DNA of 44,771 bases from a virus, in the UHGV virus genome UHGV-0180729; one strand, written 5' to 3'. Positions 1,001-1,028 of the stretch are shown in pieces. The notes below the pieces were generated by a model that did no database searches, was not told the DNA's origin, and saw only the letters and a list, made by a program, of their open reading frames with translations. Both the position numbers and the translations under genes were made by a program. Position 1 is the stretch's first letter. Every line of letters begins with the position of its first letter.

Positions 1001-1028
1001 CTTAGTAAAAAGGCCCAATCAAGGGCCT
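1001..1028 (-). terminator. Hairpin plus U-run between the SSB and DNA polymerase genes (possible intra-operon attenuator)
   Basis: Inverted repeat AGGCCC/GGGCCT at 1011-1016 and 1023-1028; minus-strand reading gives a UUUUACUAAG tract after the stem. Confidence 0.4.

What the first reader, a model, noticed from the sequence alone, without database searches (positions are those of the whole stretch)
1001..1028. Intrinsic terminator-like hairpin between the SSB and DNA polymerase genes within one operon
On the minus strand a GC hairpin followed by UUUUACUAAG lies in the 59-nt gap between the SSB stop and the polymerase start. Partial termination here would give more SSB than polymerase transcript, matching their likely stoichiometry.
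Basis: inference. Interest (0 to 1): 0.25.

Follow-up and report, generated by a model that had tools for sequence, protein, structure and literature searches.

The report
Terminator hairpin after phage SSB gene
A short GC hairpin followed by a run of U's sits right after the single-strand-binding-protein gene of this E. coli phage and looks like an ordinary, conserved and already-predicted transcription terminator, which must let some transcription through because the DNA polymerase gene directly behind it has no recognisable promoter of its own.

Summary
On the minus strand, AAGGCCC-UUGAUU-GGGCCUU (1029-1010) plus a run of five U's (1011-1007) lies in the 59-nt gap between the SSB stop (1051-1049) and the polymerase ATG (989). 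Hairpin-plus-U-run sites of this quality occur 12 times in the window against 0.6 in shuffles.

The window is a circularly permuted Kagunavirus-type genome. A hairpin plus U-run follows the SSB gene in all 86 related loci examined. Five different stem sequences are used, with compensatory changes, in lineages whose SSB is as little as 27% identical.

The element is already in the literature. Its ortholog is terminator T10 in phage VB_EcoS-Golestan, and a terminator is annotated at the same junction in Salmonella phage PVP-SE2.

SSB has its own conserved sigma-70 promoter (1767-1739) and a conserved 5'-leader hairpin, so it is a nested transcription unit. No promoter-like site lies between that promoter and the polymerase gene, so polymerase most likely depends on read-through.

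Partial termination is therefore a reasonable inference, but it has not been measured. Verdict: a genuine, ordinary, already-predicted intrinsic terminator that probably acts as an attenuator. Interest is low.

The parts
1739..1767 (-). Sigma-70-type promoter of the SSB unit: TTGACT (1767-1762), 17-nt spacer, TATAGT (1744-1739). The spacer contains the palindromic motif GAATAG-N4-CTATT.
   Evidence: The scan gives 10 of 12 matches. The promoter is conserved upstream of SSB in Kagunavirus, Jerseyvirus, Cornellvirus, phage ZS and, more loosely, Eiauvirus. The window holds 3 copies of the full motif against 0 expected. A promoter is annotated at the same place in PVP-SE2.
1713..1727 (-). Conserved stem-loop in the SSB 5' leader: CCGGG-CAGTT-CCCGG.
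   Evidence: The sequence CACTGGCCGGGCAG..CCCGG is conserved across the Guernseyvirinae genera. Edwardsiella phage eiAU-183 has a different stem (CGCGG..CCGCG) at the same place. Its function was not tested, and the 66-nt leader does not fold into this hairpin as its minimum-energy structure.
1049..1675 (-). gp2.5/Enc34-type ssDNA-binding protein gene (208 aa, GTG start, TAA stop at 1051-1049).
   Evidence: ORF list; PF10991 at E = 7e-16; relatives annotate it as an ssDNA binding and annealing protein.
1030..1048 (-). 19-nt AU-rich spacer between the stop codon and the hairpin.
   Evidence: Direct reading. The spacer is 17-22 nt in most lineages and 7-8 nt in L111 and L117-L119.
1010..1029 (-). 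Terminator hairpin: 5' arm 1029-1023, loop 1022-1017, 3' arm 1016-1010. It has five G-C pairs and two A-U pairs.
   Evidence: Fold; own scan; the stem is almost invariant in 47 Kagunavirus-type sequences; compensatory changes across genera.
1007..1011 (-). Run of five U's. The first two can also pair with A1029 and A1028. This is the expected release site for RNA polymerase.
   Evidence: Direct reading. The run is invariant in 47 Kagunavirus-type sequences. A run of 3-5 T's starts directly after the stem in every lineage.
999..1003 (-). Shine-Dalgarno AAGGG of the polymerase gene, 9 nt before the ATG.
   Evidence: Direct reading. It is annotated as a ribosome binding site in phage Shashou and is retained in front of alternative downstream ORFs in relatives.
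1..989 (-). 5' part of the family A DNA polymerase gene. It continues at the right end of the window because the genome is circularly permuted.
   Evidence: The Shashou locus aligns across the window ends. Relatives annotate a DNA polymerase.
43583..44771 (-). 3' part of the same polymerase gene.
   Evidence: The reading frame stays open from the right end of the window, and the region aligns to the Shashou polymerase.

Best explanation
This is a Rho-independent (intrinsic) terminator for host RNA polymerase at the 3' end of the SSB message, and it is leaky. Transcripts start at the SSB promoter (1767-1739) or at upstream leftward promoters such as the one at 5140-5112. Once the GC stem 1029-1010 has been transcribed, it folds in the RNA exit channel while the weak rU-dA hybrid (1011-1007) occupies the active site. 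A fraction of polymerases then release the RNA. This produces a short SSB-only mRNA capped by a 3' hairpin, which should also slow 3' exonucleases. The remaining polymerases read on into the DNA polymerase gene, whose ribosome binding site starts 4 nt after the U run.

The result would be more SSB message than polymerase message.

Shown: the anatomy, its excess over chance, its conservation with compensatory change, and the lack of a recognisable promoter for the polymerase gene. Inferred: that termination occurs at all in vivo, that it is partial, and that it sets the SSB:polymerase ratio.
For: 1. Anatomy and strand. The site has a stem of five G-C pairs plus two A-U pairs, a 6-nt loop and five U's, and it starts 19 nt after the stop codon on the coding strand. 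The complementary strand has no comparable T tail (TTAGTTAA).

2. Not chance. The window has 12 such sites against 0.6 in shuffles. Most of them lie just downstream of genes on the same strand, so the phage evidently uses this terminator style.

3. Conservation of structure rather than sequence. A hairpin plus U run follows the SSB stop in all 86 loci examined; the one locus that scan missed, L115, was recovered by the covariance model. Five stem families occur: GGCCC/GGGCC, GGCGGC/GUCGCC, GCCCGC/GCGGGC, CGGCCUC/GAGGCCG and GGCCGGG/CCCGGCC. On a 14-sequence ungapped alignment 92% of cells are paired, 4 of 8 pairs change on both sides, and the covariation score is 0.464 against 0.158 in shuffles (0 of 500 reach it). 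Sliding the partners drops pairing to 49-72%.

4. RNA-level constraint. Within Kagunavirus the only stem changes are A1028G, A1029G and C1013U. Each gives a G-U wobble on the minus-strand RNA and would give a C-A mismatch on the other strand. Loop position 3 varies freely among G, C and U.

5. Selection. Non-consensus frequency per site is 0.3-1.2% in the stem and 0% in the U run, against 4.7% in the spacer and 8.1% downstream.

6. Read-through is required. The next gene starts 10-25 nt after the U run in every lineage. No promoter-like site at 8 of 12 matches or better lies inside the SSB gene. In L008, which carries a 500-nt HNH insert at the junction, the SSB promoter is the only promoter-like site.

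7. Independent predictions. ARNold lists the ortholog as T10, GGCCCTTCATTGGGCCTTTTTACTAAGG, -11.3 kcal/mol, in phage Golestan (PMC7203180, Supplementary Table S5). The PVP-SE2 record annotates a rho-independent terminator between the same two genes and a promoter upstream of SSB.

8. It is the only strong minus-strand hairpin plus U run inside the leftward replication arm, which runs roughly 8600 -> 1 -> 44771 -> 40440 and ends at a bidirectional terminator at 40420-40435.
Against: There are no transcript 3' ends, coverage data or reporter data for this phage or any relative. The one Guernseyvirinae RNA-seq paper gives no per-gene values in its text.

The hairpin is short and the U run is broken after five U's. 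The built-in scan does not call it, and the curated Shashou record annotates another terminator nearby but not this one. Efficiency cannot be predicted from sequence, so it could be anywhere from very low to high.

The absence of a polymerase promoter rests on a consensus scan. A weak, activator-dependent or non-sigma-70 promoter inside the SSB gene would escape it.

The shuffle control used for covariation does not correct for phylogeny, and the alignment contains several near-identical Kagunavirus rows.
Confidence: 0.7

Rival explanations
1. It is an efficient, essentially complete terminator that closes the SSB unit. The polymerase is transcribed either from an unrecognised promoter inside the SSB coding region or because a phage factor makes RNA polymerase resistant to termination at a certain time in infection.
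For: The hairpin is as stable as the terminators at the ends of other units in this genome, -10 to -12.5 against -9 to -15 kcal/mol. The K1B4 RNA-seq paper places the family A DNA polymerase gene in a 'late' class while most replication genes are 'middle', which hints at separate kinetics.
Against: No promoter-like site lies inside SSB in the window or between the terminator and the polymerase gene in L008. None of the copies of the phage's own promoter motif GAATAG-N4-CTATTAT lies there. No antiterminator gene was identified, although I did not search for one systematically. The time classes in the K1B4 paper are coarse, and the SSB class is not stated.
Confidence: 0.15
2. The hairpin is mainly an RNA stability or processing element. 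It would act as a 3' barrier to exonucleases after endonucleolytic cleavage of a long polycistronic transcript, with little true termination.
For: The G-U-preserving substitutions show the constraint acts on RNA. The SSB message also carries a conserved 5' stem-loop, which fits a message built for stability.
Against: A U run directly after the stem is conserved in every lineage and is invariant in 47 Kagunavirus-type sequences. A pure exonuclease barrier does not need a U run. The two roles are not exclusive, because terminator hairpins also stabilise 3' ends.
Confidence: 0.1
3. It is a DNA-level feature, such as a recombination or homing junction, or a chance palindrome with no role in expression.
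For: The site is a mosaic boundary. At least three unrelated ORFs are inserted immediately after the U run in different relatives, and the polymerase N-terminus varies.
Against: The stem substitutions keep pairing only on the minus-strand RNA. Stems differ completely between genera while the hairpin-plus-U design and its position persist. Chance expectation is about 4e-4. Insertions after a terminator are what one expects for mobile ORFs landing in intergenic DNA.
Confidence: 0.03

Closest known systems
Predicted Rho-independent terminator T10 of Escherichia phage VB_EcoS-Golestan (Kagunavirus), PMC7203180 Supplementary Table S5
   Same: It is the orthologous site, on the same strand, after the same gene. 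The sequence is identical apart from one loop base (TTCATT there, TTGATT here). Golestan is about 90% identical to the window over this region.
   Different: It is only a computational (ARNold) listing. The passages I read say nothing about read-through, the SSB promoter or the dependence of the polymerase gene on it.
Annotated rho-independent terminator between ORF_21 (SSB homolog) and the DNA polymerase in Salmonella phage vB_SenS_PVP-SE2 (Jerseyvirus), NC_073186.1
   Same: The junction and the 57-59-nt gap are the same, and a promoter is annotated upstream of the SSB homolog.
   Different: The stem sequence is different (AAGGCGGC-UUCG-GUCGCCUU), with a UUCG tetraloop and one G-U pair. It too is only predicted, with MFOLD.
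Internal partial terminators of bacterial operons: T1 between rpsU and dnaG in the E. coli rpsU-dnaG-rpoD operon, and the attenuator between rplL and rpoB (from my own knowledge, not checked here)
   Same: An intrinsic terminator lies inside a co-directional gene string. It lowers transcription of a downstream enzyme gene needed in few copies relative to an abundant upstream protein.
   Different: Those are measured; this one is not. Here the upstream gene also has its own dedicated promoter, and the element is viral.
Phage T7 terminator T-phi after gene 10 (from my own knowledge, not checked here)
   Same: It is an incompletely efficient phage terminator. It gives an excess of message for an abundant protein while read-through supplies the downstream genes.
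   Different: T-phi acts on T7 RNA polymerase and follows the capsid gene. This element follows sigma-70 promoters, so it should act on host RNA polymerase.

Membership tests
Intrinsic (Rho-independent) terminator | GC-rich stem-loop with a stem of about 5-14 bp and a loop of 3-8 nt | tested here: met
   Five G-C pairs plus two A-U pairs and a 6-nt loop; -10.0 kcal/mol for the core and -12.5 kcal/mol extended.
Intrinsic (Rho-independent) terminator | U-rich tract immediately 3' of the stem | tested here: met
   UUUUUACU follows the last G-C pair, which is 6 U in 8 nt. After the longest stem only UUUACUAA remains (4 U in 8), which is why I think the built-in scan rejects it.
Intrinsic (Rho-independent) terminator | Located downstream of a stop codon on the transcribed strand, in non-coding DNA | tested here: met
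   It starts 19 nt after the SSB stop codon, on the minus strand like SSB, inside the 59-nt gap.
Intrinsic (Rho-independent) terminator | Structure maintained in evolution by compensatory change | tested here: met
   Five stem families across 86 loci. On the 14-sequence alignment 92% of cells are paired, 4 pairs change on both sides, and 0 of 500 shuffles reach the covariation score. Caveat: the shuffle control ignores phylogeny.
Intrinsic (Rho-independent) terminator | Called by standard terminator predictors | tested here: inconclusive
   ARNold calls the ortholog in Golestan and MFOLD-based annotation marks it in PVP-SE2. The built-in consensus scan does not call it, and the Shashou record annotates a different terminator nearby but not this one.
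Intrinsic (Rho-independent) terminator | RNA 3' ends at the U tract in vivo, or release by purified RNA polymerase in vitro | not testable with these tools
   No Term-seq or long-read transcript data for any Guernseyvirinae phage were found.
Intra-operon attenuator (partial terminator that tunes gene ratios) | Promoter upstream, and a co-directional downstream gene that lacks a promoter of its own | tested here: met
   The SSB promoter is at 1767-1739. No promoter-like site lies in 1675-990 on the minus strand or in L008 between the terminator and the polymerase gene. This rests on consensus scans only.
Intra-operon attenuator (partial terminator that tunes gene ratios) | Measured termination efficiency clearly between 0 and 100%, with a step in transcript abundance across the site | not testable with these tools
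   This needs RNA-seq coverage, Term-seq or a two-reporter assay.
Rfam-curated RNA families | Match to a curated covariance model at its gathering score | tested here: not met
   No matches in the whole window. Generic terminators are not expected to match.

The most novel reading that the evidence does not exclude
The SSB gene of this whole phage clade (Guernseyvirinae, Eiauvirus and uncultured relatives whose SSB is as little as 27% identical) may be a conserved, insulated expression cassette. The cassette would consist of an operator-bearing sigma-70 promoter, a 5' stem-loop, the SSB gene and a deliberately leaky terminator abutting the polymerase ribosome binding site. The terminator's leakiness, perhaps modulated during infection, would be the main determinant of the SSB:polymerase ratio and the sole source of polymerase transcription.
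Probability: 0.4. Interest if true: 0.3.

Novelty: already known. Interest (0 to 1): 0.15.

Why it matters
Little rides on it. If confirmed, it would be one more example of a phage using a leaky internal terminator to make much of a stoichiometric protein (SSB) and little of a catalytic one (DNA polymerase).

It has some practical use for annotating and engineering Kagunavirus and Jerseyvirus therapeutic phages. The junction is a natural insertion site for foreign ORFs. Altering the hairpin would be expected to change polymerase supply, and strengthening it could be lethal to the phage.

Tried and rejected
- The built-in promoter/terminator scan did not report the site on the 20-kb stretch or on 900-1150. 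I attributed this to its maximal-stem rule and wrote my own scan with shuffles.
- Folding energy of the 68-nt gap is not significant on its own (z = -1.66), so I do not use it as evidence.
- Rfam at gathering thresholds found nothing in the window.
- I looked for transcript data. The K1B4 Guernseyvirinae RNA-seq paper gives no per-gene values and no SSB class in its text, and its supplements hold annotation only. The PhageExpressionAtlas paper does not mention the group. Searches for Jerseyvirus RNA-seq and ONT-cappable-seq gave only unrelated phages.
- A MAFFT alignment of all 22 distinct hairpins put the lineages with 5-nt loops and 7-bp stems out of structural register. I therefore counted pairs only on the 14 sequences that align without gaps.
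- The covariance model built from those 14 sequences recovered the orthologs in Kagunavirus, Jerseyvirus, Cornellvirus and Eiauvirus, plus three other terminators in the window. It missed the most divergent stems (L098-L103, L117-L119) at E <= 1.
- I considered and rejected a bidirectional terminator (the plus-strand tail is TTAGTTAA), an RNase III site (the stem is far too short) and occlusion of the polymerase Shine-Dalgarno (the hairpin ends 6 nt before AAGGG, and the weak flanking pairs in the minimum-energy fold are not conserved).

Full report
**What the window is.** Megablast of the first 4 kb finds 429 phage records. The best are E. coli siphophages of the genus Kagunavirus (Guernseyvirinae) at about 90-91% identity, followed by hundreds of Salmonella Jerseyvirus records at 80-90%. 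The annotated Shashou locus aligns across both ends of the window. The window is therefore a circularly permuted complete genome cut inside the DNA polymerase gene, which is join(989..1, 44771..43583) on the minus strand.

**The observation.**
- The 208-aa ORF 1675..1049 ends with TAA at 1051-1049. The next ORF starts with ATG at 989, so the gap is 59 nt.
- Within the gap, AAGGCCC (1029-1023) pairs with GGGCCTT (1016-1010) around the loop TTGATT.
- Five T's (1011-1007) follow the last G-C pair. Next comes ACTAAGGG, whose AAGGG (1003-999) is the Shine-Dalgarno of the polymerase.
- The upstream ORF matches PF10991, the Enc34 ssDNA-binding protein family, at E = 7e-16. Relatives annotate it as a gp2.5-like SSB.
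- The downstream ORF is the exonuclease end of a family A polymerase.

**Is it more than chance?** Folding energy alone is not persuasive: z = -1.66 for the 68-nt gap. The built-in terminator scan misses the site. I think this is because the longest stem consumes two T's.

I wrote my own scan. It requires a G-C-closed stem of at least 5 bp, a loop of 3-8 nt, at least 4 T in the first five tail bases and dG <= -9 kcal/mol. It finds 12 sites in the window against 0.6 +/- 0.7 in 60 dinucleotide shuffles. That is about 4e-4 expected in one 59-nt gap on one strand.

Most of the 12 sites sit just after the stop codon of a gene on the same strand. They share one style: five or six G-C pairs, a short loop and a T run. 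This site is a normal member of the genome's set of terminators. It is also the only strong one on the minus strand inside the leftward replication arm. That arm ends at a bidirectional hairpin at 40420-40435.

**Comparative evidence within Kagunavirus.** In 47 Kagunavirus-type sequences the stem and the U run are the least variable part of the region. Non-consensus frequency per site is 0.3-1.2% in the stem and 0% in the U run, against 4.7% in the spacer and 8.1% downstream.

The only stem changes give G-U wobbles on the minus-strand RNA: A1028G, A1029G and C1013U. Loop position 3 varies among G, C and U. The wobbles would be C-A mismatches on the other strand, so the constraint is on minus-strand RNA.

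**Comparative evidence across lineages.** In more distant lineages the same position carries a different hairpin, each followed directly by a T run and, 10-25 nt later, by the next start codon:

| Lineage | Hairpin (5' arm-loop-3' arm) |
|---|---|
| Jerseyvirus | AAGGCGGC-UUCG-GUCGCCUU |
| Cornellvirus and phage ZS | AAGGCCCGC-UGAU-GCGGGCUUU |
| Uncultured relatives | GCCCGC stems with CGCGU, CUAGU, CAUGC or GAAA loops |
| Edwardsiella phage eiAU-183 | ACGGCCUC-GCAU-GAGGCCGU |
| Contigs with SSB only 27-30% identical | GGCCGGG-GAUU-CCCGGCC |

All 86 loci examined have such a hairpin. My scan failed at one locus, L115, because of a frameshift in the SSB gene; the covariance model recovered the hairpin there.

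On an ungapped 14-sequence alignment 92% of cells pair and four of eight pairs change on both sides. The covariation score is 0.464 against 0.158 in shuffles, and 0 of 500 shuffles reach it. Sliding the partners lowers pairing to 49-72%. The shuffle control does not correct for relatedness, so I treat this as supportive rather than as a probability.

Immediately upstream of SSB lies a strong sigma-70-type promoter: TTGACT, 17 nt, TATAGT at 1767-1739. It is conserved in front of SSB in every genus examined and annotated as a promoter in PVP-SE2.

It belongs to a promoter family marked by the palindrome GAATAG-N4-CTATT, with 11 matches in the window against 0.7 expected. Published Kagunavirus papers found this motif with PHIRE. 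A conserved stem-loop follows in the 5' leader at 1727-1713.

SSB is therefore a nested unit with its own promoter and terminator, not merely a gene inside an operon. In contrast, no promoter-like site lies between that promoter and the polymerase ATG. The same holds in relative L008, where a 500-nt HNH gene is inserted after the U run. Polymerase transcription must therefore pass the hairpin. This is the main argument that the terminator is leaky, and it is an inference from consensus scans.

**Mechanism.** The best explanation is ordinary intrinsic termination of host RNA polymerase with incomplete efficiency. It would give an abundant short SSB mRNA protected at its 3' end, and a smaller amount of read-through message for the polymerase. 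In some relatives that read-through message would also cover small mobile ORFs inserted at this junction.

Efficiency cannot be derived from sequence. The hairpin is at the modest end for this genome (five G-C pairs, a 6-nt loop, a U run broken after five), but the Jerseyvirus and Cornellvirus versions are stronger.

The rivals are:
- a complete terminator combined with an unrecognised polymerase promoter or antitermination;
- a mainly stabilising or processing hairpin;
- a DNA-level junction element.

The last is disfavoured by the RNA-specific wobble substitutions and by the conserved U run.

**Comparison with what is known.** The element has already been predicted.
- Supplementary Table S5 of the VB_EcoS-Golestan paper lists T10, minus strand, GGCCCTTCATTGGGCCTTTTTACTAAGG, -11.3 kcal/mol (PMC7203180). 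It differs from the window by one loop base.
- The PVP-SE2 GenBank record annotates a rho-independent terminator between the same two genes.
- The Shashou record does not annotate it.

Functionally it resembles the internal terminators of the E. coli rpsU-dnaG-rpoD and rplKAJL-rpoBC operons and T7 T-phi. That comparison rests on my own knowledge and was not checked here. No experimental data exist for this clade.

**Verdict.** The structural interpretation is supported. The functional interpretation (partial termination that sets stoichiometry) is plausible and somewhat strengthened, but untested. The 'one operon' framing needs amending. The element is an ordinary member of a well-known class and has already been listed in the literature for close relatives, so interest is low.

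Noticed in passing
window 1713-1733 (-): The SSB 5' leader begins with a conserved sequence, CACTGGCCGGGCAG(Y)T(T)CCCGGAGTAAAC, that can form a 5-bp stem-loop (CCGGG-CAGTT-CCCGG). It is conserved across Kagunavirus, Jerseyvirus, Cornellvirus and phage ZS, and Edwardsiella phage eiAU-183 has a different stem at the same place. It could be an mRNA-stabilising 5' hairpin or a site for translational autoregulation by SSB. The 66-nt leader does not adopt it as its minimum-energy fold.
   Followed up: partly
window minus strand 1742-1758, 5115-5131, 5159-5175, 8582-8598, 42952-42968; plus strand 30566-30582; both strands about 10317-10334: A family of promoters shares the palindrome GAATAG-N4-CTATT(AT), which overlaps the spacer and -10, often with a perfect TTGACA at -35. 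There are 11 matches against 0.7 expected. Published Kagunavirus papers call this motif a 'phage RNA polymerase promoter'. The TTGACA/TATAGT context suggests instead host sigma-70 promoters carrying an operator, possibly for the Cro-like HTH protein encoded at 5205-5420 (PF01381).
   Followed up: partly
window 1736-2266 (-): An HNH_3 plus AP2-domain homing-endonuclease-like ORF lies between the exonuclease and SSB genes. Its last codons (KEVDYRIANYYS*) are encoded by the -35, spacer and -10 of the SSB promoter. Many relatives lack this ORF.
   Followed up: no
relatives: L002 2486-2641; L008 2093-2590; L013, L015, L016, L017, L026, L027, L029, L030, L032, L035 just after the hairpin: The junction right after the U run is a mosaic hot spot. 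Three unrelated ORFs are inserted there in different relatives: a small ORF starting MFFCKHVYRYMKPLPW, one starting MAAELKRYRRITYCKF, and an HNH-like ORF starting MEHIKDFLSYNRETGIF. The polymerase N-terminus also occurs in several variants. The hairpin and usually the AAGGG ribosome binding site are retained.
   Followed up: partly
window 7706-7729 (+) and 5412-5426 (+): Two plus-strand terminator-like hairpins lie inside the minus-strand replication arm. One ends the Cro-like gene. A stronger one (-14.8 kcal/mol) lies 2.3 kb further on, between two minus-strand genes, where it could stop antisense transcription running through the helicase-primase gene. Both are listed as T11 and T12 in the Golestan paper.
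   Followed up: no
window 1049-1110 (-): The SSB C-terminus is an acidic patch followed by a strongly basic end (DDLEDDEEDEAPRRERRRR), unlike the purely acidic tail of T7 gp2.5. The arginine-rich end is conserved in relatives.
   Followed up: no
window 1 and 44771: The window is a circular permutation of a complete genome of about 44.8 kb. Its ends fall inside the DNA polymerase gene, so the gene appears as two pieces, 989..1 and 44771..43583.
   Followed up: yes
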